A DNA stretch of 62,826 nucleotides from an uncultured Candidatus Nemicrothrix sp. (GTDB lineage: Bacteria; Actinomycetota; Acidimicrobiia; Acidimicrobiales; Aldehydirespiratoraceae), in NCBI GenBank assembly GCA_964513285.1, contig CAZEML010000003.1, positions 1-62,826 on the forward strand, written 5' to 3'. A program made the translations under genes and the position numbers. The first letter of the stretch is position 1. Each line of letters begins with the position of its first letter. Shown here piece after piece: positions 2,671-55,021 of the stretch. The notes under the pieces are model-generated. The model made no database searches. It saw only the letters and a program-made list of their open reading frames with translations, and was not told where the DNA came from.

Positions 2671-4143
2671 TCAGCCCCCGAAGGAGCCGCCCTGACCCTC
2701 GAAGTCGATGATGTCGGACTGAGCCACGAAGGTCAGACCGCCGTCGACGACCTGGACTTCCTGGATCTGAGCGACCTCGGTCCAGTAGGCGTCGTTCACG
2801 CCGTCGAGCGCCAGCGAGCCACCGAGCAGGTAGGGGCTCGAGGTGTCGATGTTCCACAGGCTCGACATGAAGCCGGTCCGGGTGAGCGGGCCCTCGTCCA
2901 CCGCAGCGCGGAGGGCGGTGACGACCATCTCGCCGTAGATCACACCGGTCGAGAACGAACCGTCGGCGCAGGTCACGTCGCCGTAGTCGGCGAGGATCTG
3001 CTCCATCAGCACGATGGCGGGATCGTCGGCGTACACCGGGTCACCACAGATCTTGTTCGAGTTCGCCATGCGCACGCCCGCACCCTCGTCGGCCAGAAGG
3101 CCAGCAGCGTCCTGCACCGGGGTGAAGAAGCTGGAGAGGTTGTTGCAGGTGTAGGACATGAAGAACCGCGGACGGTAATCCGAAGCGGCGATGGTGCCCA
3201 CGGCCTGCGGGCAGAACGCCGCAGTCGTGCCGGCGACGAAGACGTCGGCACCGCTACCGATGAGCGTGGTCATCTCGTTGGTGACGTCGGGCGCCGCCGG
3301 GTCGTGGTTGGCCTCAGCGACGAGCTCGATCTGGCCGGCGTCGGCGCAGTTCTGCAGCTCGTTCTGGTAGGTCTTGCCGAAGTCGTTGTCCATGATGAGG
3401 GCAGCGACGGTGGCGCCCTCGCCGAACTCGTCGACGATGGCCTGGCACCAGATCTGGGTCTCGGTCACATAGTTGAGGATGTTGCCAACGGTCCACGGGA
3501 AGTTGGCGGGGTCACCCCAGAACGGGAAGCCGGACGAGTTGAAGATCTGCGGGACGCAGGCTTCGTCGGTGATCGGGCGGACCGCCAGGTTGATCGGGGT
3601 ACCGATCGTGTGGGCGAACATGAAGATGTCCTCGGTCTCGAGCATCTCCTCGACGTTGGCAACGGCGCGGCCCGACTCGTAGGCGTCGTCGCGGGTCACC
3701 AGGACCAGCTCCTTGCCGTCGATCGGATCGGTGTCGTTGATGTAGTCGAAGTACATTCCCATGCCTTCGCCGATGGCGCCGAAGGCCGCGAGCTGACCCG
3801 ACTGCGGGCCGGTCCAGCCGATGCGGATTTCGTCGCCGTCCGCGCCGCCGGTGTTGCTCCAGTCCTCGGGGCACTCGCCGACGTCGACGCTGGTGCCGGC
3901 CGCGAGCTCGACGACGCCCTCGACCTCTTCGGCCATGTCGTCGTCGCCGGAGTCGTCCCCGTCGCCGGAGTCGCCGCCGTCGTCAGAGTCGCCGCCGTCG
4001 TCGGAGTCGCCCCCGTCGTCGGTGGAGGCGCCGCTGTCGTCGCCGGAGTCTGCGGTGTCGCCGTCATCGTCATCGCCACACGCGGCGGCGATGAGCGAAA
4101 GCGCGAGCAACACTGCGATCAATCGCAAGAGTCGGTGCTTCAT
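2671..4143 (-). CDS. ABC transporter substrate-binding lipoprotein, branched-chain amino acid (LivJ/K-like family)
   Basis: 490 aa. It has a lipobox (LIAAAC), then a long D/G/S acidic linker, then a periplasmic-binding type I fold. It is the last gene of the livGFHM-like operon. Confidence 0.85.
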   Translation of the reverse strand: MKHRLLRLIAVLLALSLIAAACGDDDDGDTADSGDDSGASTDDGGDSDDGGDSDDGGDSGDGDDSGDDDMAEEVEGVVELAAGTSVDVGECPEDWSNTGGADGDEIRIGWTGPQSGQLAAFGAIGEGMGMYFDYINDTDPIDGKELVLVTRDDAYESGRAVANVEEMLETEDIFMFAHTIGTPINLAVRPITDEACVPQIFNSSGFPFWGDPANFPWTVGNILNYVTETQIWCQAIVDEFGEGATVAALIMDNDFGKTYQNELQNCADAGQIELVAEANHDPAAPDVTNEMTTLIGSGADVFVAGTTAAFCPQAVGTIAASDYRPRFFMSYTCNNLSSFFTPVQDAAGLLADEGAGVRMANSNKICGDPVYADDPAIVLMEQILADYGDVTCADGSFSTGVIYGEMVVTALRAAVDEGPLTRTGFMSSLWNIDTSSPYLLGGSLALDGVNDAYWTEVAQIQEVQVVDGGLTFVAQSDIIDFEGQGGSFGG

Positions 4144-39064: not shown

Positions 39065-40612
39065 TCAGAACGGCCAGTCGGCGTCACGGCCCTGCTCGAG
39101 CGTCCGCATCAAGCTGAACGTGGCGTCGGAGAATCCGGCCAGCGTGTAGCGGCCCCGACCGCCGCTCGGCATCGACCGAGGCCGGTAACCGGCCAGGTCG
39201 ACCGTGTAGATCAGCGGCACGTGGCTCAGGCTCACCGAGCCCGAGTCGTGCATCTGATCGTCGGTGAACATCACGACTCGGTCGTGACGTCGCCGGTCGA
39301 AGTGGGCGGCGACGGCCGTGTGGCCATAGGTCGAGTGACCGACCGAGCCGACCATCGACACCAGGTCGGCCACGACACCGAGGACCGACGCGCCCTTGCG
39401 GATCCGCACGGCTCGGTTGCTGTGGCCGAAGATGACGACATCGGCGTCGTTCGATCGGGTCGCGGTGACCGCTGCCATGACCGCCGCCACCTCGACTCGA
39501 GTCATCACCGACCGGTTCGCCACCCGCGCCTGCATCGAGCCCGACATGTCGATGACCACCAGGGTTCGATCGAGCGACGGGACGTTGCGAGTCGTGAGGT
39601 CGAGCGTACGGCCGAGCGCCCGCTTCCAGTCATCCGACGGAGCGTGCGAGTACGCCGCCCACACCTGGTACGGGAAGAGGCGAGCCTTCGCCACCTCGTC
39701 CGCGTCGGTGATGCGGTCCAACACCGTCGAGATCGCCGCATCGCTGATGCCACGCTCGTCGAAGTTGCGCAGGTTGCGGATGAGCGCCATCGCACCCATC
39801 GAAGGAATCACCGACTCCCACGCCTCGGCGTCCATGCCGTCCGGCAGCCAGCCCGACAGTCGCTCCCACGAGGTACCGGCCTCGGCCAGCGCTCGCGGTC
39901 CACGCGCGGCGAGCTCGGCTCGTCGCTCCTCGACCGGGACCTTCGCGAGGTTCTCGGCCGCGGCGAGCACCGGAAGCACGTCGGCATCGGCGACGGCGTC
40001 GTCGTGGTGGCGACGGTCGAGCAGCCACGCGAACAGCGCGCTCTGACAGGCATCGCGCGGCTTCGGGTGGGTCAGCTCGATGACGTCGGCCATCCGTACG
40101 CCACGGCTCAGACCGTCGTACCGCAGAGCGGCACGCTCGGTGTAGAGCCGGGTCGCCGCGTCGGCGACGCCCCGCTTGACCGCCATCGGGAGACGGCGGC
40201 CGTGGCGCGAGTGCCAGTAGCCGATCATCTCGGCCGGCTCGTCACCGCGCTGGAGCACGGCGTCGATCACTCGACGGCCCCGCTCGCCGCCGGCCGCCAC
40301 GTACTCGGCGGCCAGGATGATCGACGCCGAACGGATCTTCAGCTCGTTGCGCAGGTACGGCGCGAGCCGGGCGACGAACTCGGGGTTCGATGCCACGGTT
40401 CGCGCGACGAGGTCGACGAACCGCTGCTCGCGGTCCTCGGCCCGCTCGTAGAACGAGTCCTCGCCGGCGAGGTACGTCGCCGCCATGAGGAAGAGCTCCG
40501 ACTCGAGGTCGGCCGCCTGGCCGCGGCCGCCCTCGTGGGTGACGAGGGCGAGCCGACCGGTCCGGAGGGAAGCGATCGGGTTGATTCGGTTGTGCTTGCT
40601 GAACGTGACCAT
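39065..40612 (-). CDS. rsr: Ro60-related protein (Rsr): TROVE domain plus vWA/MIDAS
   Basis: Track ORF 39065-40840 trimmed to ATG 40612, which is preceded by GGAAGGAGG. 515 aa. The TROVE-like N-region reads ...FLMAATYLAGEDSFYERAEDREQRFVDLV...LRNELKIRSASIILAAEY. The C-terminal vWA domain carries DMSGSM (DxSxS). Confidence 0.9.
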   Translation of the reverse strand: MVTFSKHNRINPIASLRTGRLALVTHEGGRGQAADLESELFLMAATYLAGEDSFYERAEDREQRFVDLVARTVASNPEFVARLAPYLRNELKIRSASIILAAEYVAAGGERGRRVIDAVLQRGDEPAEMIGYWHSRHGRRLPMAVKRGVADAATRLYTERAALRYDGLSRGVRMADVIELTHPKPRDACQSALFAWLLDRRHHDDAVADADVLPVLAAAENLAKVPVEERRAELAARGPRALAEAGTSWERLSGWLPDGMDAEAWESVIPSMGAMALIRNLRNFDERGISDAAISTVLDRITDADEVAKARLFPYQVWAAYSHAPSDDWKRALGRTLDLTTRNVPSLDRTLVVIDMSGSMQARVANRSVMTRVEVAAVMAAVTATRSNDADVVIFGHSNRAVRIRKGASVLGVVADLVSMVGSVGHSTYGHTAVAAHFDRRRHDRVVMFTDDQMHDSGSVSLSHVPLIYTVDLAGYRPRSMPSGGRGRYTLAGFSDATFSLMRTLEQGRDADWPF

Positions 40613-40681
40613 GATGCGGCCTCCTTCCGGCCGGGTCGGTTGATGGATAGTTGTTGATGGTTGAGCGAGCGGATCAGGGAA

Positions 40682-40740
40682 CCGGGCGGGCGAGGTCACG
40701 CCCGGCCGAGTTGACGCGGGCGCCACGGAATCGAACCGAG
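40682..40740 (-). other. Orphan T-arm-like element (CTCGG-TTCGATT-CCGTG) followed by a GC hairpin, between the Y RNA and rsr
   Basis: The GGTTCGATTCC T-loop consensus sits at 40724-40740 without a matching acceptor or D-arm. Hairpin CCGGGCG/CGCCCGG lies at 40682-40705. This is possibly a tRNA remnant or the 3' module/terminator of the Y RNA transcript. Confidence 0.35.
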
Positions 40741-40787
40741 AAACACCAGAAGAAACCCCGCCCTTCGCAGCTGATCCGCGAACGGGG

Positions 40788-40944
40788 TGATCGGATCCGG
40801 CCCGAGAACCAGAGCGGCTGGGCTCAAAGCGCTCTACCAACTGAGCTACAGCCCGAAGACGTCGGGCTGACGGGACTCGAACCCGCGACCTCTCACGTTG
40901 CAGGTGAAGAACTCCCGGCCATCACAACGGGCCGGATCCGATCA
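40788..40944 (-). ncRNA. yrlA: YrlA-type Y RNA candidate (circularly permuted tRNA mimic on a 17-bp stem)
   Basis: Hand fold. The closing helix UGAUCGGAUCCGGCCCG (40944-40928) pairs with CGGGCCGGAUCCGAUCA (40804-40788). Inside, at 40886-40831, lie T-arm GCGGG-UUCGAGU-CCCGU, an 8-bp acceptor-like stem CAGCCCGA/UCGGGCUG capped by CGUCU, then UA and D-arm GCUC-AGUUGGUA-GAGC. It lies 175 nt upstream of rsr on the same strand. Confidence 0.7.
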
Positions 40945-41050
40945 GATGTCTCCGAGAGCCAGGCGATGGAACCCCCGCGCGGACATTCAACCGACACGTT
41001 CGCAGAGAAGTAGGTCCCGTCTACGCAACGGAGACAGAAAGAGGAGTGCA

Positions 41051-41258
41051 TCGACCAGACGCGGACCGGCCCGAGAACCAGGCGAGCGAGCGTTGCCCAT
41101 CGCTGGCATCGCGGAAGCGATGCGTCTGCCAGGTCAATTGATCCCCATCTGGCTCCAAGCGGCGCGTTTCCCAGACCGCAGGGTCTCGTCCGAAGACGAC
41201 ATCGGGCGTCGGGAGGAAGTACGCCTGCTCATCGCAGCGGGCCGGCGCGCCTCGTCGA
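41051..41258 (-). ncRNA. Second Y-RNA-like long-stem RNA candidate (paralogous stem, no obvious tRNA module)
   Basis: A hand-folded helix of about 20 bp. UCGAC-g-AGG-CGCG-CCGGCCCG (41258-41238) pairs with CGGGCCGG-uc-CGCG-UCU-g-GUCGA (41073-41051), leaving a 2-nt UC bulge. It shares the boxes CCGGCCCG-yUGyGAUG and CUGGUUCU-CGGGCCGG with the YrlA candidate. Confidence 0.45.
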
Positions 41259-41289
41259 AACACTCCACACCAAGAGACATCGTTGAACG

Positions 41290-41373
41290 CGGAAGGGGTA
41301 GGAGTCGAACCCACAAGGCTTGCGCTCGGCCGGTTAGCAACCAGCTGCCGTCACCGAATCGGCTTGCCCTTCC
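41290..41373 (-). tRNA. tRNA-Ser (anticodon GCU), class II
   Basis: Reverse complement: GGAAGGG-CA-AGCC..GGCA-GCTGG-TTGCTAA-CCGGC, long variable arm, GTGGG-TTCGACT-CCTAC, CCCTTCC. C8 instead of U8. No encoded CCA. Confidence 0.85.
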
Positions 41374-41379
41374 GAGGCG

Positions 41380-41452
41380 TACCCGATGCCGGAATCGAAC
41401 CAGCGCACGCCGGGTGTAAACCGGCCGCTCTCACCAACTGAGCTAATCGGGC
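41380..41452 (-). tRNA. tRNA-Val (anticodon UAC)
   Basis: GCCCGAT-TA-GCTC-AGTTGGTGA-GAGC-G-GCCGG-TTTACAC-CCGGC-GTGC-GCTGG-TTCGATT-CCGGC-ATCGGGT. G1-U72 wobble. No CCA. Confidence 0.85.
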
Positions 41453-41471
41453 AAGGGTCTCGCGACCTGCG

Positions 41472-41545
41472 TAGGGAGGGTTGGATTCGAACCAACGACA
41501 GACCCGCTGTATCAGAACGGCGCTCTACCCCTGAGCTACATCCCT
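41472..41545 (-). tRNA. tRNA-Ile (anticodon GAU), slightly non-canonical
   Basis: AGGGATG-TA-GCTC-AGGGGTA-GAGC-G-CCGTT-CTGATAC-AGCGG-(7-nt variable)-GTTGG-TTCGAAT-CCAAC-CCTCCCT. U6-C67 mismatch. No CCA. Confidence 0.7.
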
Positions 41546-41644
41546 CTGTTCTTTGCTGCGAGTTCGCGACCTGCGGTCGCTCATGCGCAGACCCCACGAA
41601 CCGCTCGCCGGCGAAGCCGGACCGAGCTCCCCGCGAGGTACGAG

Positions 41645-41718
41645 CGCCCAGGATGGGATTCGAACCCACACCCTCTTCCGTGACAGGAAAGTGCTCTGAC
41701 CGATTGAGCTACCTGAGC
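41645..41718 (-). tRNA. tRNA-Asp (anticodon GUC)
   Basis: GCTCAGG-TA-GCTC-AATCGGTCA-GAGC-A-CTTTC-CTGTCAC-GGAAG-AGGGT-GTGGG-TTCGAAT-CCCAT-CCTGGGC. No CCA. Confidence 0.85.
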
Positions 41719-41729
41719 GAGACCATGCG

Positions 41730-41800
41730 AACCGGGAGGAGGACTCGAACCCCCATCTGCGGGTTCAGAGCCCGCCGTCGTGCCGTTTGACCATCCCGGT
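41730..41800 (-). tRNA. tRNA-Gln (anticodon CUG)
   Basis: ACCGGGA-TG-GTCA..CGAC-G-GCGGG-CTCTGAA-CCCGC-AGAT-GGGGG-TTCGAGT-CCTCC-TCCCGGT. The weak A1-U72 pair is typical of Gln. No CCA. Confidence 0.8.
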
Positions 41801-41829
41801 GTGGTTTGCGGCGAGCGCCGCAGCGATGG

Positions 41830-41906
41830 GTTGATCGATCGGAATCGAACCGACGAGTCCCAGGGTCACAACCTGGTGCGACAAACCAGCAGTCGCCTCG
41901 ATCAAC
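41830..41906 (-). tRNA. tRNA-His (anticodon GUG) with encoded G-1:C73
   Basis: G(-1)-TTGATCG-AG-GCGA-(11-nt D loop)-TCGC-A-CCAGG-TTGTGAC-CCTGG-GACTC-GTCGG-TTCGATT-CCGAT-CGATCAA-C73. A8 instead of U8. Confidence 0.85.
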
Positions 41907-41907
41907 A

Positions 41908-41983
41908 TGGAGCCCCGGGCGGGAGTCGAACCCGCTGCCTCTCGATTACGAAACGAGCGCACGTCCACACGTGCGTCCGAGGC
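41908..41983 (-). tRNA. tRNA-Thr (anticodon CGU), CCA encoded
   Basis: GCCTCGG-AC-GCAC-GTGTGGAC-GTGC-G-CTCGT-TTCGTAA-TCGAG-AGGCA-GCGGG-TTCGACT-CCCGC-CCGGGGC-T-CCA. A8. U31-U39 mismatch. Confidence 0.8.
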
Positions 41984-41984
41984 G

Positions 41985-42073
41985 TGGCGGAGAGCGTGGG
42001 GGTCGAACCCACAAGGCTTGCGCTCGACCGTTTTCGAAACGGCTGCCGTCGCCAACTGTCGGCTTGGCTCTCC
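41985..42073 (-). tRNA. tRNA-Ser (anticodon CGA), class II, CCA encoded
   Basis: GGAGAGC-CA-AGCC..GGCA-GCCGT-TTCGAAA-ACGGT, long variable arm CGAGCGCAAGCCTTG, GTGGG-TTCGACC-CCCAC-GCTCTCC-G-CCA. C8. Confidence 0.85.
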
Positions 42074-42078
42074 AGGTG

Positions 42079-42153
42079 TGGTGGGGGCACTGGGATTCGA
42101 ACCCAGGCCTCGCGGGGTAAGAGCCCGCAGCTCTTCCACTGAGCTACACCCCC
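42079..42153 (-). tRNA. tRNA-Lys (anticodon CUU), CCA encoded
   Basis: GGGGGTG-TA-GCTC-AGTGGAA-GAGC-T-GCGGG-CTCTTAC-CCCGC-GAGGC-CTGGG-TTCGAAT-CCCAG-TGCCCCC-A-CCA. Confidence 0.85.
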
Positions 42154-42157
42154 GTGT

Positions 42158-42242
42158 TGGTACTCCCCGTGGGATTCGAACCCACACGCCTCGAGGGCGA
42201 CGGGTTCTGAACCCGCTGCGTAAACCGTTCCGCCAGAGGAGC
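42158..42242 (-). tRNA. tRNA-Leu (anticodon CAG), class II, CCA encoded
   Basis: GCTCCTC-TG-GCGGAACGGTTTACGC..GCGGG-TTCAGAA-CCCGT, variable hairpin CGCC-CTCGA-GGCG, GTGGG-TTCGAAT-CCCAC-GGGGAGT-A-CCA. A37 instead of the usual G37. G1-U72. Confidence 0.8.
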
Positions 42243-42272
42243 GAGTCGCCGCACGGAGCGGCGGGTGTTGTG

Positions 42273-42345
42273 TGGTGCAGGACGGGATCGAACCGCCGAC
42301 GCGCTGCGTTTCAGACAGCCGCTCTTCCGACTGAGCTACCGCACC
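42273..42345 (-). tRNA. tRNA-Phe (anticodon GAA)
   Basis: GGTGCGG-TA-GCTC-AGTCGGAA-GAGC-G-GCTGT-CTGAAAC-GCAGC-GCGTC-GGCGG-TTCGATC-CCGTC-CTGCACC-A. No CCA. Confidence 0.85.
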
Positions 42346-42351
42346 GATGAG

Positions 42352-42426
42352 AGCCCCCGGGAGGATTCGAACCTCCGACCTCCTGGGTCGAAACCAGTTG
42401 CTCCTGATCCACTGAGCTACGAGGGC
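42352..42426 (-). tRNA. tRNA-Arg (anticodon UCG)
   Basis: GCCCTCG-TA-GCTC-AGTGGATCAG-GAGC-A-ACTGG-TTTCGAC-CCAGG-AGGTC-GGAGG-TTCGAAT-CCTCC-CGGGGGC-T. No CCA. Confidence 0.8.
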
Positions 42427-42432
42427 GAGACG

Positions 42433-42504
42433 CGCGGTGGCGAGGATTCGAACCCCGACCTTCGGGTTTGGAAGCCGCTGTGCTGCCGTTGACACCACCA
42501 CCAC
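42433..42504 (-). tRNA. tRNA-Trp (anticodon CCA), weak anticodon stem
   Basis: GTGGTGG-TG-GTGT-CAACGGCA-GCAC-A-GCGGC-TTCCAAA-CCCGA-AGGT-CGGGG-TTCGAAT-CCTCG-CCACCGC-G. Only 3 Watson-Crick pairs in the anticodon stem in my fold. No CCA. Confidence 0.6.
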
Positions 42505-42542
42505 GGTGTGATCGCAGACGGCTCCTGCCGTCAGTGACCGCG

Positions 42543-42615
42543 CTGCGAGGGGAGGGCTCGAACCTCCGCCGACGACGGGTAACAACCGTCCGCTCTGCCG
42601 CTGAGCTACCCCGCA
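42543..42615 (-). tRNA. tRNA-Asn (anticodon GUU)
   Basis: TGCGGGG-TA-GCTC-AGCGGCA-GAGC-G-GACGG-TTGTTAC-CCGTC-(6-nt variable)-GGAGG-TTCGAGC-CCTCC-CCTCGCA-G. U1-A72 and G73 as in bacterial Asn. No CCA. Confidence 0.8.
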
Positions 42616-42648
42616 AGGTTCCGCCGCGGCGAGGGCCGCGGGCGGGCG

Positions 42649-42719
42649 TATCCCGTAGGAGAATCGAACTCCTCTTTCCAGGTTGAGGGCCTGGTGTCCT
42701 ACCGATAGACGAACGGGAC
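42649..42719 (-). tRNA. tRNA-Glu (anticodon CUC), C33 in the anticodon loop
   Basis: GTCCCGT-TC-GTCT-ATCGGTA-GGAC-A-CCAGG-CCCTCAA-CCTGG-AAAG-AGGAG-TTCGATT-CTCCT-ACGGGAT-A. Loop position 33 is C, not the near-universal U. No CCA. Confidence 0.7.
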
Positions 42720-42724
42720 AAGAG

Positions 42725-53201: not shown

Positions 53202-53855
53202 TCAGCGGTCCGCGAGCCGCTCGAGCCCGTCGAGGATGAGGTCGAGTACGAGTTCGAAGCTCGGACTGGTGTCGCCGTCGAGGTGCTGTTGCACGTGGGC
53301 GATCGAGTGGGCGTGGCGGTCCGTGTCGAGCGACTCGACGAACTCGCGAGCGAGGTCCTCCATCGCCCGGTCGTCGGTGCTCGTCGCCATCTCCTGAGCC
53401 TGGAGCGTGTAGCCGAGCACGTGGTTGTTGACCGCGTGGAAGCCGTGGTGCGCGAGGTCGTCGGGAAGACCCGAGCGAGCGAAGGCGGAGAGCAGGTACT
53501 CCATGTGGTCGATCCGGGCCGGCCCGGGAAGCACCCGCAGCCACAGCGTGGGTACCCACGGGTGACGCACGAAGGCGTCGTGGGTGGCGACGGTGAAGTC
53601 CCGGATGCTCGCCAACGGTGCCCGGTCGGGCGGCGGTGCCGGGATCGTGGCGGCGACGGCATCCACCATCTGCTTGAGCAGTTCGTCCTTGTTGGCGACG
53701 TGGCGGTACAGGGCCATGACCTTGTAGCCGAGCTCGTCGGCCAGACGGCGCATCGTCAGCGCGCCGACACCTTCCGCGTCAGCCAACGCGATGCCAACGG
53801 CCACGATGCGCTCGGCATCGAGCGGTTCGCGGGAAGTGCTCGTGGTCTCGGCCAA
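53202..53855 (-). CDS. TetR/AcrR family transcriptional regulator
   Basis: 217 aa with HTH IALADAEGVGALTMRRLADELGYKVMALYRHVANKDE. Confidence 0.85.
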   Translation of the reverse strand: MAETTSTSREPLDAERIVAVGIALADAEGVGALTMRRLADELGYKVMALYRHVANKDELLKQMVDAVAATIPAPPPDRAPLASIRDFTVATHDAFVRHPWVPTLWLRVLPGPARIDHMEYLLSAFARSGLPDDLAHHGFHAVNNHVLGYTLQAQEMATSTDDRAMEDLAREFVESLDTDRHAHSIAHVQQHLDGDTSPSFELVLDLILDGLERLADR

Positions 53856-53891
53856 CCGGTGTGATCCGTTTCACTCGAACAGGCCTTGACA

Positions 53892-53939
53892 GCGTACAAC
53901 GTACGCACGATGATGGCCAGCACTGCGTACGTTGTACGC
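53892..53939. promoter_or_regulatory. 16-bp perfect inverted repeat GCGTACAACGTACGCA-N16-TGCGTACGTTGTACGC (putative TetR operator)
   Basis: Read directly from the sequence. It lies in the divergent region between the TetR gene and the MDR oxidoreductase. Confidence 0.5.
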
Positions 53940-53965
53940 ATCACCGAATCCCCCACCCCGAACGA

Positions 53966-55021
53966 ATGAAGAAGACGATGACGATGACCAACGAAACCCA
54001 CCCGCTCCCCCACGACGCCGAAGCGCCCGCCATCCCCCAGCGCATGCCCGCCGCGGCCCACCGCACCTACGGCACCGGCGACGCGATCACCGTGACCGAG
54101 CTCGATGTGCCGCAGCCCGACCGGGGCGAGGTCCTCGTCGAGGTCAAGGCCGCCTCGCTCAACGCGCTCGACTGGCACTTCCTGACCGGCACCCCGTACG
54201 TGCTGCGTGCCCAGGCAGGCATCCGCCGGCCGAAGCGCATCGTCCCAGGCGCCGACGTCGCGGGTCGCGTCGTCGCCCTCGGACCCGACGTCACCGAGTT
54301 CGCCGTCGGCGACGAAGTGTTCGGCGAGGGCAACAGCGGGGGATGCTCGCCCTACGCCGTCATGAAGACGAAGGGTCTCGTCGCCAAGCCGATCGGCGTC
54401 ACCTTCAACGACGCGGCCGCCACGCCCGTCGCCGGCCTCACCGCCGTGCAGGGGCTTCGCACGCACGCCGAGCTCCAGCCCGGCGAGCACGTCCTGATCA
54501 ATGGTGCTGCCGGCGGCGTCGGTACGTTCGCGGTGCAGATCGCCAAGGCGCTCGGCGCCGAGGTCACCGCGGTCTGCAGCGCCCGCAACGTGGAGATGGT
54601 TCGGGCGCTCGGCGCCGACACGGTCGTCGACTACACGAGCGAGGACGTCACGGTCGGCGGTGCCCGCTTCGACGTGATGCTCGACAACGTCGGCAACCAC
54701 TCCCCCACGCAGGTGCTGTCGATGTTGAAGCCCGAGGCTCGTTTCGTCGCGGTCAGCGGCCCGAAGGACGGCAAGTGGCTCGGCCCGATCACGCACGTGG
54801 CCAAGACCTGGCGGGCGTTCCGCAAGGCACCGCAGTCGTTCCATCAGTTCGTCGCCGAACCGAACCACGACGACCTCGATCAGCTCGGCGCCTGGCTGGC
54901 CGATGGCACCCTCGTTCCCCAGATCGATCGAGTGATCGGCCTCGACGATGTTGCCGCGGCGATCGACGAGATCGGCGGCGGCCACACCCGGGCGAAGATC
55001 CTCGTCGACCCCACCCGCTGA
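53966..55021 (+). CDS. NAD(P)-dependent MDR-family oxidoreductase (quinone reductase-like)
   Basis: Trimmed to ATG 53966 (MKKTMTMTNETHPLP...). GEVLVEVKAASLN and INGAAGGVGTFAVQIAK. Confidence 0.85.
   Translation: MKKTMTMTNETHPLPHDAEAPAIPQRMPAAAHRTYGTGDAITVTELDVPQPDRGEVLVEVKAASLNALDWHFLTGTPYVLRAQAGIRRPKRIVPGADVAGRVVALGPDVTEFAVGDEVFGEGNSGGCSPYAVMKTKGLVAKPIGVTFNDAAATPVAGLTAVQGLRTHAELQPGEHVLINGAAGGVGTFAVQIAKALGAEVTAVCSARNVEMVRALGADTVVDYTSEDVTVGGARFDVMLDNVGNHSPTQVLSMLKPEARFVAVSGPKDGKWLGPITHVAKTWRAFRKAPQSFHQFVAEPNHDDLDQLGAWLADGTLVPQIDRVIGLDDVAAAIDEIGGGHTRAKILVDPTR

What the first reader, a model, noticed from the sequence alone, without database searches (positions are those of the whole stretch)
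40788..40944. Circularly permuted tRNA-like module on a perfect 17-bp stem: YrlA-type Y RNA
Seen in the sequence:
- The reverse strand contains a canonical T-arm (GCGGG-UUCGAGU-CCCGU).
- The T-arm is followed directly by an 8-bp acceptor-like helix (CAGCCCGA / UCGGGCUG) that is closed by a CGUCU loop instead of having free ends.
- Next come U-A and a canonical D-arm (GCUC-AGUUGGUA-GAGC).
- The whole module (40886-40831) is embraced by a perfect 17-bp helix: UGAUCGGAUCCGGCCCG (40944-40928) with CGGGCCGGAUCCGAUCA (40804-40788).

Established background: this permuted topology is the described architecture of bacterial YrlA Y RNAs. Their ends sit in the stem where an anticodon stem would be, and that stem carries the Ro60 binding site. 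YrlA genes are encoded next to rsr.

The region between the 17-bp stem and the tRNA-like core did not fold convincingly by hand.
Basis: partly seen in the sequence, partly recalled or inferred. Interest (0 to 1): 0.75.

Follow-up and report, generated by a model that had tools for sequence, protein, structure and literature searches.

The report
YrlA-type Y RNA beside Ro60 gene
This is a genuine but ordinary example of a known bacterial non-coding RNA: a Y RNA whose middle mimics a circularly permuted tRNA, encoded just upstream of its partner protein Ro60/Rsr, here as one of about four tandem Y-like RNAs following a 16-gene tRNA array.

Summary
On the minus strand, 40944-40788 folds into a 17-bp perfect closing stem, a conserved internal loop, a 7-bp inner helix, a small variable-arm hairpin, then T-arm, closed acceptor-like hairpin and D-arm.

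A Ro60/Rsr gene (39065-40612, same strand) starts 176 nt downstream. Thirteen homologues from Acidimicrobiia genomes show strong covariation: 93% of cells paired against 33-48% in slid controls. The tertiary 15:48 pair also covaries without exception.

A covariance model built without the window finds the RNA full-length at 124.5 bits (E 3.5e-24). The same model finds equivalents beside Ro genes of actinophages. Rfam's YrlA model matches only the tRNA-like core (39.3 bits, gathering score 69), as it does for the phage RNAs, so routine annotation misses it. ARAGORN miscalls part of it as tRNA-Cys.

Beyond the finding, three sibling Y-like modules flank it (Yd well supported, Yb moderately, Ya tentative). 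The whole set directly follows a same-strand array of 16 tRNA genes, and this layout recurs in most related loci.

Verdict: a new member of a known kind. Rsr binding, RNA ends and function are inferred, not shown.

The parts
40788..40944 (-). YrlA-type Y RNA, the finding: the complete module from the 5' strand to the 3' strand of the closing stem
   Evidence: Fold z -4.6. Leave-out covariance model R1: 124.5 bits, E 3.5e-24, model positions 1-146. Covariation in 13 homologues.
40928..40944 (-). Closing stem, 5' strand UGAUCGGAUCCGGCCCG
   Evidence: Perfect 17-nt inverted repeat. The proximal 12 bp are 93.9% paired, and 9 of 12 pairs have double-sided changes. In L014 the terminal U-A pair becomes C-G.
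40788..40804 (-). Closing stem, 3' strand CGGGCCGGAUCCGAUCA
40921..40927 (-). 5' internal-loop motif UUGUGAU (lineage consensus YUGYGNA, followed by GG); putative Rsr contact site
   Evidence: U26, G27, G29 and G32 are invariant in 13 homologues. It sits where the published GNCGAA(N0-1)G motif sits (PMC4201824).
40914..40920 (-). Inner helix, 5' strand GGCCGGG (anticodon-stem analogue)
   Evidence: 93.4% paired; 3 of 7 pairs have double-sided changes.
40892..40908 (-). Variable-arm (V) hairpin UUCAC-CUGCAAC-GUGAG
   Evidence: Present in the homologues with different sequences. It is the weakest helix, 73% paired in the MAFFT alignment. ARAGORN takes it for a Cys-GCA anticodon arm.
40870..40886 (-). 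T-arm GCGGG-UUCGAGU-CCCGU
   Evidence: 100% paired. G53, U54, U55, C56, R57, A58 and C61 are invariant. Matches the Rfam YrlA consensus.
40849..40869 (-). Closed acceptor-like (AS) hairpin: 8 bp with a CGUCU loop. In tRNA numbering this is a 7-bp acceptor stem plus a U(-1):A73 pair
   Evidence: 94.7% paired; 6 of 8 pairs have double-sided changes.
40831..40848 (-). U8-A9 linker and D-arm GCUC-AGUUGGUA-GAGC
   Evidence: The D stem is invariant in all 13. U8, A14, G18G19 and A21 are invariant. Position 15 covaries with position 48.
40816..40822 (-). Inner helix, 3' strand CCCAGCC
40805..40815 (-). 3' internal-loop motif GCUCUGGUUCU (lineage consensus GCYYUGGUUCY)
   Evidence: Invariant G142, G143, C146 and C148. 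Also present in the actinophage homologues.
40669..40779 (-). Yd: second Y-like RNA (YrlB-like). Same stem architecture with CUGCGAAGG; reduced apical domain with a T-loop-like hairpin CGG-UUCGAUU-CCG
   Evidence: Motif scan. R1: 44.7 bits, E 1.2e-7. Ten homologues: 95.7% paired against 29-54% when slid; 8 of 17 pairs double-sided.
40947..41036 (-). Yb: short Y-like module. Outer stem GUCUCCG/CGGAGAC, UUGCGUA, inner helix GACGGGA/UUCCAUC
   Evidence: Motif scan. Conserved in L014, L002 and L008 with two compensatory swaps in the outer stem. Fold z only -0.9. Not found by R1.
41060..41249 (-). Ya: tentative fourth Y-like module. 12-bp outer stem with a 2-nt bulge, CUGCGAU, then ...GCCUGGUUCUC
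   Evidence: Motif scan. R1: 31.1 bits, E 8e-5, full length. No homologue was found and fold z is -0.8.
39065..40612 (-). rsr: Ro60 orthologue, 515 aa, with GGAGG 7 nt before the ATG
   Evidence: TROVE plus vWA_Ro60. PDB TROVE proteins at 1e-36 and Xenopus Ro60 at 9e-5. Phage Ro-like proteins.
41289..42799 (-). Array of 16 tRNA genes on the same strand, ending 40 nt before Ya
   Evidence: ARAGORN. Rfam tRNA reaches its gathering score for 12. Same-strand arrays lie upstream of rsr in 12 of 14 informative related loci.

Best explanation
The element is the gene for a YrlA-type Y RNA, the non-coding partner of the Ro60/Rsr protein encoded 176 nt downstream.

Shown here:
- The RNA has two modules.
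- The first is a long stem formed by pairing the two ends. Its inner end, together with the adjacent internal loop, is conserved (5' YUGYGNAGG, 3' YUGGUUCYC, flanked by GGCCYG/CRGGCC).
- The second is a tRNA-like domain in circularly permuted order: variable-arm hairpin, T-arm, acceptor stem closed by a loop, then D-arm. It keeps every nucleotide that builds the tRNA elbow and L-shape.

Inferred from the characterised family (Deinococcus, Salmonella, M. smegmatis):
- The Rsr ring binds the conserved stem and loop.
- The tRNA-like domain is recognised by tRNA enzymes (TruB, Dus).
- That domain serves as the effector or gate module. It tethers Rsr to a partner such as an exoribonuclease and controls access of misfolded RNAs to Rsr.

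It is probably transcribed with its sibling Y-like modules (Ya, Yb, Yd), and perhaps with the upstream tRNA array and rsr, as one precursor that is then cut into separate RNAs. This is what happens to YrlA and YrlB in M. smegmatis.

Its 7-bp acceptor stem makes it a possible RNase P substrate, like M. smegmatis YrlA.
For: - Anatomy at the exact coordinates.
- rsr lies immediately downstream on the same strand.
- Rfam YrlA is the best family match to the core, at E 4.8e-7.
- The permuted core is found upstream of rsr in 13 of 15 informative related loci.
- Covariation in an unfitted MAFFT alignment: 93.0% of cells paired against 33-48% when slid, 21 of 41 pairs with double-sided changes, and 0 of 500 shuffles reach the covariation score.
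- The tertiary Levitt pair 15:48 is G:C in 9 sequences and A:U in 4, without exception. All tRNA tertiary nucleotides are invariant.
- The leave-out model R1 scores the window RNA at 124.5 bits, E 3.5e-24, full length.
- R1 also finds full-length counterparts beside Ro genes of phages VanLee, BRock and Atuin and of an IMG/VR contig.
- Literature precedent covers tandem YrlA/YrlB upstream of rsr from one precursor, the permuted-tRNA topology, long variable loops and RNase P cleavage with a 7-bp acceptor stem (PMC4201824; bioRxiv 10.1101/312249).
- No promoter-like site, and no terminator above chance, lies between the array, the Y modules and rsr.
Against: - The Rfam YrlA score (39.3 bits) is well below the gathering score (69) and is a local match to model positions 24-84 only. 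The actinophage Y RNAs behave the same way.
- The window RNA's 5' motif UUGUGAUGG departs from the published GNCGAA(N0-1)G and from the lineage's commoner CUGCGAAGG.
- There is no expression, end-mapping or binding data of any kind. The source is known only as a relative of uncultured Acidimicrobiia genomes.
- No RtcB or PNPase gene lies next to rsr, so the effector is unknown.
- The promoter scan uses an E. coli-type consensus that may not apply to this phylum.
Confidence: 0.87

Rival explanations
1. The Y-like modules are not released as separate small RNAs. They stay as a structured 5' leader of the rsr mRNA and act in cis, for example as Rsr-binding sites that autoregulate rsr translation or stability.
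For: All four modules lie between the tRNA array and the rsr start codon on the same strand, with no promoter-like site or terminator above chance in between. Yd ends only 56 nt before the ATG.
Against: In M. smegmatis the equivalent upstream YrlA and YrlB are processed from the precursor and immunoprecipitate with Rsr as discrete RNAs (PMC4201824). In phage Atuin the homologous module lies downstream of Ro (L019 4505-4654), where it cannot be a leader. Conservation of a full tRNA fold is not needed for a cis operator.
Confidence: 0.08
2. It is a real tRNA gene, or a decayed one: the tRNA-Cys(GCA) that ARAGORN calls at 40861-40934, as the last member of the adjacent tRNA array.
For: ARAGORN makes the call. 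The element adjoins 16 tRNA genes. The V hairpin has a 5-bp stem and a 7-nt loop CUGCAAC that resembles an anticodon arm.
Against: Rfam tRNA scores 21.4 bits, below its gathering score of 29, with four non-standard acceptor pairs and no D-arm in that register. The real D-arm lies 3' of the T-arm. This permuted order, the closed acceptor hairpin and the outer stem are conserved and covary in 13 genomes. The V loop is not conserved as GCA in the homologues.
Confidence: 0.02
3. It is a repeat or mobile-element remnant, with the 17-bp inverted repeat as terminal repeats, or debris from tRNA-array rearrangement with no function.
For: The perfect 17-bp inverted repeat is unusual. Modules are gained and lost between close relatives: Ya is absent and Yd truncated in L014.
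Against: The pairs are maintained through G-U wobbles and compensatory changes, which indicates selection at the RNA level. The motifs are strand-specific. The stem module occurs nowhere else on either strand of the window. It is always next to rsr.
Confidence: 0.02

Closest known systems
YrlA (Y RNA-like A; Rfam RF02553), as defined in Salmonella Typhimurium and found in more than 250 bacteria and 22 phages (Chen et al. 2014, PMC4201824; crystal structure PDB 6cu1 described in bioRxiv 10.1101/312249)
   Same: - Ends paired in a stem that carries the putative Ro60 site.
- tRNA-like domain in the order V, T, closed acceptor stem, D.
- D and T arms nearly identical to the family consensus.
- UA linker and Levitt-pair covariation.
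- Located within 4 kb of rsr on the same strand.
   Different: - Scores below Rfam's gathering threshold, and only the core aligns.
- Has a variable-arm hairpin and a much longer closing stem (17 bp).
- The 5' motif is UUGUGAUGG rather than GNCGAA(N0-1)G.
- A 3'-strand motif (YUGGUUCYC) is also conserved in this lineage. The 2014 paper states that only the 5' strand is recognisable in the Salmonella and M. smegmatis RNAs.
- It lies upstream of rsr, not downstream as in Salmonella, and no rtcBA is adjacent.
Mycobacterium smegmatis YrlA and YrlB (Chen et al. 2014)
   Same: - Actinobacterial.
- Two or more Y RNAs in tandem upstream of rsr on the same strand.
- The second RNA keeps only a T-arm-like hairpin, as Yd does here.
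- YrlA of about 147 nt with a 7-bp acceptor stem.
   Different: - Here there are up to four modules, and a 16-tRNA array lies directly upstream.
[quoted passage not shown]
Actinophage Y RNAs beside 'Ro-like RNA binding protein' genes (mycobacteriophages in Chen et al. 2014; VanLee, BRock and Atuin examined here)
   Same: - Full-length matches to the model built from the Acidimicrobiia RNAs, at 49-89 bits.
- Two modules per locus.
- The Ro gene is embedded among tRNA genes.
   Different: - Phage genomes, with Rsr only about 35-37% identical.
- The window is a chromosome with housekeeping genes on both sides.
Deinococcus radiodurans Yrn1 and metazoan Y RNAs
   Same: Ro60-bound RNAs with a terminal stem that carries the binding site and an apical effector module. 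Yrn1 keeps a T-arm.
   Different: They belong to a different lineage. Yrn1 has no full D-arm and a different arm order. Metazoan Y RNAs have no tRNA-like domain (PMC4201824).

Membership tests
YrlA-type bacterial Y RNA | T-arm and D-arm nearly invariant in sequence, with a stem-loop (AS) between them. The order is T, AS, D, i.e. a circularly permuted tRNA with a closed acceptor stem. | tested here: met
   Sequence. Alignment to the Rfam YrlA consensus across T, AS and D. The D stem is invariant, the T stem is 100% paired and the AS hairpin covaries at 6 of 8 pairs.
YrlA-type bacterial Y RNA | Nucleotides for tRNA tertiary interactions are conserved, and the Levitt pair 15:48 shows compensatory G:C / A:U changes. 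| tested here: met
   U8, A14, G18G19, A21, G53, U54, U55, C56, R57, A58 and C61 are invariant. The 15:48 pair is G:C in 9 sequences and A:U in 4, with no exception.
YrlA-type bacterial Y RNA | Encoded within 4 kb of a Ro60/TROVE gene on the same strand. | tested here: met
   rsr is at 39065-40612(-), 176 nt downstream of the RNA's 3' end. The same holds in 13 related loci.
YrlA-type bacterial Y RNA | 5' and 3' ends pair in a stem (anticodon-stem position) that leads to the Ro60-binding module. | tested here: met
   Outer stem: 9 of 12 pairs compensatory. Inner helix: 3 of 7. The true RNA ends are not known.
YrlA-type bacterial Y RNA | GNCGAA(N0-1)G motif near the 5' end (putative Rsr contact). 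| tested here: inconclusive
   At the homologous position the window RNA has UUGUGAUGG. The lineage consensus is YUGYGNAGG. Sibling Yd and several homologues have CUGCGAAGG, which contains CGAAGG but has U where the first G is expected. BRock has GAUGCGAAG.
YrlA-type bacterial Y RNA | Reaches the Rfam RF02553 gathering score (69 bits). | tested here: not met
   39.3 bits, a local match to model positions 24-84 of 114. The Y RNAs beside actinophage Ro genes also score only 32-47 bits, so this reflects the breadth of the seed. It is a curators' threshold, not a biological feature.
YrlA-type bacterial Y RNA | Bound by Rsr in vivo; pseudouridine 55 and dihydrouridine introduced by TruB and DusA. 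| not testable with these tools
   Needs immunoprecipitation or gel shift, and modification mapping.
tRNA | Cloverleaf in the order acceptor, D, anticodon, T, acceptor, with a paired 7-bp acceptor stem formed by free ends. | tested here: not met
   Rfam tRNA scores 21.4 bits (gathering score 29), with mispaired acceptor and D regions. The ARAGORN tRNA-Cys call uses the V hairpin as the anticodon arm.
YrlB-like second Y RNA (for module Yd) | A second RNA between YrlA and rsr with the Rsr-binding motif and at most a T-arm. | tested here: met
   Yd at 40669-40779: CUGCGAAGG, covarying outer and inner helices, and a hairpin CGG-UUCGAUU-CCG. YrlB is defined functionally, not by sequence, so this is an analogy.

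The most novel reading that the evidence does not exclude
The conserved unit is not the single Y RNA. It is a whole operon: an auxiliary tRNA array, then a battery of two to four Y RNAs, then rsr, transcribed as one precursor and cut up by the tRNA-processing machinery.

On this reading Ro60 and its tRNA-mimicking Y RNAs are functionally tied to the array tRNAs, for example in quality control or turnover of these tRNAs under stress. The unit is shared between Acidimicrobiia chromosomes, actinophages and, according to the literature on TROVE genes, archaeal tRNA clusters.

A corollary is that the permuted tRNA-like domain arose inside such arrays from a tandem duplicate of one tRNA gene, read from anticodon arm to anticodon arm.
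Probability: 0.2. Interest if true: 0.6.

Novelty: new member of a known kind. Interest (0 to 1): 0.35.

Why it matters
- The locus shows that YrlA-type Y RNAs extend into Acidimicrobiia, a poorly studied and mostly uncultured actinobacterial class.
- It shows that the current Rfam threshold misses these RNAs, and that tRNA finders mis-call them. The window gets a false 'tRNA-Cys', and phage VanLee's annotated 'tRNA-Arg(tct)' lies inside a Y RNA.
- The lineage alignment defines a two-stranded conserved stem/loop element. This is a concrete candidate Rsr-binding site for mutagenesis.
- The recurrent layout of tRNA array, several Y RNAs and rsr is not mentioned in the bacterial tRNA-array papers I could search. 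It offers a testable link between Ro60/Y RNA and tRNA metabolism.
- None of this overturns current understanding.

Tried and rejected
- **Rfam at gathering thresholds:** no YrlA in the window or in 15 related loci. Only a permissive local search found the core.
- **Megablast of the locus against 50,697 phage records:** only an 80-nt hit to Microbacterium phage FuzzBuster, which I did not pursue.
- **Phage or prophage origin of the window:** rejected, because the flanking genes are ordinary chromosomal metabolism and regulation genes and none matched a phage or mobile-element family. The closest relative is syntenic beyond the array.
- **Sigma-70 promoter and intrinsic terminator scans:** uninformative, with 0 promoters and terminators at the chance level.
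- **Supplementary tables of Chen et al. 2014:** not held, so I could not check whether any Acidimicrobiia were in their list.
- **Literature searches linking tRNA arrays to Ro60 or Y RNA:** these returned only the archaeal tRNA-cluster paper.
- **Thermodynamic z-scores for Ya and Yb:** not significant, so these two modules rest on motif architecture and, for Yb, on homologues.
- **The regex core search:** missed L005 and L016. L005 appears to have only a reduced Y-like module without a tRNA-like domain, and L016's rsr start was misplaced. Neither was resolved.

Full report
**1. Observation**

- T-arm GCGGG-UUCGAGU-CCCGU: 40886-40870.
- An 8-bp hairpin CAGCCCGA/UCGGGCUG closed by CGUCU: 40869-40849.
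- U-A linker: 40848-40847.
- D-arm GCUC-AGUUGGUA-GAGC: 40846-40831.
- A perfect 17-bp helix between 40944-40928 and 40804-40788.

The repeat finder reports this pair as 17 nt, 100% complementary, with 123 nt between the arms. It is the longest perfect spaced inverted repeat in the window. The 157-nt RNA folds at -81.6 kcal/mol, z = -4.6, and none of 200 shuffles folds as well.

**2. Surroundings**

- The window is about 68% GC.
- Third-position GC gene calling and Pfam scans show ordinary chromosomal genes on both sides. These include WS/DGAT, acyl-CoA metabolism, a class I aminoacyl-tRNA synthetase, ABC transporters and a two-component system. None of the 20 flanking proteins scanned matched a phage or mobile-element family.
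- Directly downstream on the same strand, after GGAGG and an ATG at 40612, lies a 515-aa ORF.
  - It hits TROVE (2e-15) and the Ro60 vWA domain (3e-8), both above Pfam's cut-offs.
  - It matches solved TROVE-domain proteins at 1e-36 and Xenopus Ro60 at 9e-5.
  - It matches actinophage 'Ro-like RNA binding proteins' at up to 4e-78, with about 37% identity.
  - This is rsr.
- Directly upstream on the same strand lies an array of 16 tRNA genes, 41289-42799. ARAGORN calls all 16, and 12 reach Rfam's tRNA threshold.

**3. Database identity**

- At curated thresholds Rfam reports nothing at the locus.
- A permissive search gives YrlA (RF02553) as the best match: 39.3 bits against a gathering score of 69, E 4.8e-7. 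The match is local, covering model positions 24-84, which are the T-arm, the closed hairpin and the D-arm.
- ARAGORN calls a 'tRNA-Cys(GCA)' at 40861-40934. Rfam tRNA gives only 21.4 bits there, with mispaired acceptor and D regions. That call mistakes the variable-arm hairpin for an anticodon arm.

**4. Homologues**

A scan of one genome per species with the Rsr protein returned 16 loci. All come from Acidimicrobiales/Acidimicrobiia MAGs, with Rsr 52-90% identical.

The permuted core (T-arm, hairpin, D-arm) lies 100-330 nt upstream of rsr in 13 of these loci as well as in the window.

After the outer stem the order is:
- a conserved 5' motif, YUGYGNAGG;
- a 7-8-bp inner helix;
- a conserved GGGRUUNCUUC;
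- a small variable-arm hairpin;
- the tRNA-like core;
- the 3' strand of the inner helix;
- a conserved YUGGUUCYC;
- the 3' strand of the outer stem.

The outer stem differs in sequence between loci and ranges from about 7 to 19 bp. Only its inner 6-7 bp (GGCCYG/CRGGCC) are conserved.

**5. Covariation**

On a plain MAFFT alignment of 13 sequences (A1), I counted the proposed 41 pairs.

| Measure | Result |
|---|---|
| Cells forming a standard pair | 93.0% |
| Same, with 3' partners slid by 1-3 columns | 33-48% |
| Pairs with double-sided changes | 21 of 41 |
| Shuffles reaching the covariation score | 0 of 500 |

| Helix | Pairs with double-sided change | Comment |
|---|---|---|
| Outer stem, proximal 12 bp | 9 of 12 | 93.9% paired |
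| Closed acceptor-like hairpin | 6 of 8 | 94.7% paired |
| Inner helix | 3 of 7 | 93.4% paired |
| T stem | 1 of 5 | always paired |
| D stem | 0 of 4 | invariant |
| V hairpin | 2 of 5 | weakest, 73% paired |

The closest relative, L014, keeps the full 17 bp. Its terminal U-A pair is replaced by C-G.

The tertiary Levitt pair 15:48 is G:C in nine sequences and A:U in four, without exception. U8, A14, G18G19, A21, G53, U54, U55, C56, R57, A58 and C61 are invariant. This is the signature reported for YrlA (PMC4201824; bioRxiv 10.1101/312249).

**6. Independent detection**

I built a covariance model from ten homologues, leaving out the window and L014 (A4 and R1). Searched against the window, it gives:
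- the RNA at 40794-40939(-): 124.5 bits, E 3.5e-24, model positions 1-146;
- 40667-40782: 44.7 bits, E 1.2e-7;
- 41063-41249: 31.1 bits, E 8e-5;
- beyond these and a few weak hits at E 0.9-8 elsewhere in the window, only partial matches across or within the adjacent array tRNAs.

The same model finds full-length counterparts beside Ro genes elsewhere:

| Source | Hits (bits) |
|---|---|
| Phage VanLee | 89.4 and 58.7 |
| Phage BRock | 61.8 and 49.4 |
| Phage Atuin | 59.4 |
| 101-kb IMG/VR contig | 88.1, flanked by 26.4 and 34.3 |

Rfam's YrlA model scores those phage RNAs at only 32-47 bits, again locally. The sub-threshold Rfam score therefore reflects a narrow seed, not a peculiarity of this locus.

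**7. Sibling modules**

I defined the stem module formally as a 5' motif, a 3' motif, at least 6 contiguous outer pairs and at least 6 of 7 inner pairs. A scan with this definition finds exactly four hits on the two strands of the window. All four are tandem on the minus strand between the array and rsr:
- Ya, 41246-41065;
- Yb, 41036-40947;
- the finding, 40944-40788;
- Yd, 40779-40669.

Background in the other loci was about four weak hits in 230 kb. The patterns were derived partly from these same sequences, so the count is not fully independent.

Support differs between the siblings.
- **Yd** is well supported. It has homologues in nine loci and covaries (95.7% paired against 29-54% when slid; 8 of 17 pairs double-sided). 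It keeps CUGCGAAGG and a T-loop-like hairpin but no D-arm. [quoted passage not shown]
- **Yb** is moderately supported. It is conserved in L014, L002 and L008, with two compensatory swaps in its outer stem and changes in its inner helix.
- **Ya** is tentative. No homologue was found, and Ya and Yb have unremarkable folding z-scores.

Modules are gained and lost between close relatives: Ya is absent and Yd truncated in L014.

**8. Mechanism**

Shown here:
- the sequence and structure;
- selection on the structure, including the tRNA tertiary fold;
- constant linkage to rsr on the same strand.

Inferred from the characterised family:
- Rsr binds the conserved stem and loop.
- The tRNA-like domain is modified by tRNA enzymes and acts as the effector or gate module.
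- The RNAs are cut from a common precursor, as in M. smegmatis.

Consistent with co-transcription, only 40, 28, 2, 8 and 56 nt separate the array, Ya, Yb, YrlA, Yd and the rsr ATG. No terminator above chance lies between them. That scan uses an E. coli-type consensus.

In tRNA numbering the acceptor-like hairpin is a 7-bp stem plus a U(-1):A73 pair. RNase P cleavage as in M. smegmatis is therefore possible but untested.

**9. Comparison and novelty**

The RNA meets these YrlA features:
- topology;
- tertiary nucleotides;
- Levitt-pair covariation;
- pairing of the two ends;
- linkage to rsr.

It does not reach the Rfam threshold, and its 5' motif only partly fits the published GNCGAA(N0-1)G.

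It is best filed as a new member of a known kind, in a class (Acidimicrobiia) where I could not confirm earlier reports because the supplementary tables are not held.

Lineage features worth noting:
- the conserved 3'-strand motif;
- the long closing stem;
- up to four tandem modules.

**10. Side observation**

Same-strand tRNA arrays lie directly upstream of rsr in 12 of 14 informative Acidimicrobiia loci. The window shares the proximal order Asp, Ile, Val, Ser(GCT) with L003 and L004. Ro genes of three actinophages sit inside tRNA clusters.

A paper on archaeal tRNA clusters notes TROVE genes in 20 of 29 clusters (PMC6333295). The bacterial tRNA-array papers I could search do not mention Ro, TROVE or Y RNAs.

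The viral contig L020 has the tandem Y modules but no tRNAs within 5 kb, so the array is frequent but not obligatory.

**11. Verdict**

The finding is real and correctly interpreted, and it is biologically ordinary for a specialist. Interest is modest (0.35). It rests mainly on the annotation gap, the defined candidate Rsr-binding element, and the layout of tRNA array, Y RNAs and rsr.

Noticed in passing
window 41289-42799 (-); L003, L004, L007, L009, L012-L016 upstream of rsr: A same-strand array of 16 tRNA genes (15 amino acids; no Ala, Gly, Cys, Met or Tyr) ends 40 nt before the first Y-like module. Comparable arrays of up to 21 tRNAs precede rsr in 12 of 14 informative Acidimicrobiia loci. 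Ro genes of phages BRock, Atuin and VanLee also lie among tRNA genes. The bacterial tRNA-array papers searched do not mention Ro or Y RNA.
   Followed up: partly
window 40861-40934 (-); L014 3775-3848; L017 2135-2206: tRNA finders mis-call Y RNAs. ARAGORN reports a 'tRNA-Cys(GCA)' inside the YrlA of the window and of L014. The GenBank annotation of Gordonia phage VanLee has a 'tRNA-Arg(tct)' that lies inside an 89-bit YrlA-type hit, where Rfam tRNA scores only 26.9 bits (gathering score 29).
   Followed up: partly
window 41827-41905, 41908-41983, 41985-42073, 42724-42799 (-): Four array tRNAs (His-GTG, Thr-CGT, Ser-CGA, Pro-TGG) are called by ARAGORN but do not reach Rfam's tRNA gathering score. 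They may be atypical or decaying members of the array.
   Followed up: no
L013 2807-2901; L015 2760-2853; L010 3144-3272: Additional full-length but weak (31-37 bits) matches to the Y RNA model lie inside the tRNA arrays of other loci. Y-like modules may be interspersed among array tRNAs.
   Followed up: no
L020 4416-4962 (IMG/VR UViG_3300050013_000165): A 101-kb viral contig with an Rsr 53% identical to the window's carries three tandem Y-like modules (26, 88 and 34 bits) directly upstream of rsr. It has no tRNA gene within 5 kb.
   Followed up: partly
window 40625-40668 (-); L001 upstream of rsr: The 56-nt leader between Yd and the rsr start codon is C/A-rich and predicted to be unstructured (CUCAACCAUCAACAACUAUCCAUCAACC). 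L001 has a similar CA-rich stretch. It may be a translation-enhancing leader.
   Followed up: no
L003 about 2090-2125 and L004 about 3932-3967: In these two loci the position of Yd, between YrlA and rsr, is occupied by a long perfect hairpin (GAACAGUUAGGGAC...GUCCCUAACUGUUC).
   Followed up: no
window 53892-53907 / 53924-53939: A perfect 16-nt inverted repeat (GCGTACAACGTACGCA / TGCGTACGTTGTACGC) with a 16-nt spacer lies at the junction of divergently oriented ORFs 53202-53855(-) and 53861-55021(+). It may be an operator.
   Followed up: no
L005 about 3800-3895: This related locus lacks the tRNA-like core. It has a short element with the stem motifs (GCGCAGUGGGCUACUUC ... CACUGGUUCUCUGG), so it may carry a Y-like RNA without a tRNA-like domain.
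   Followed up: no
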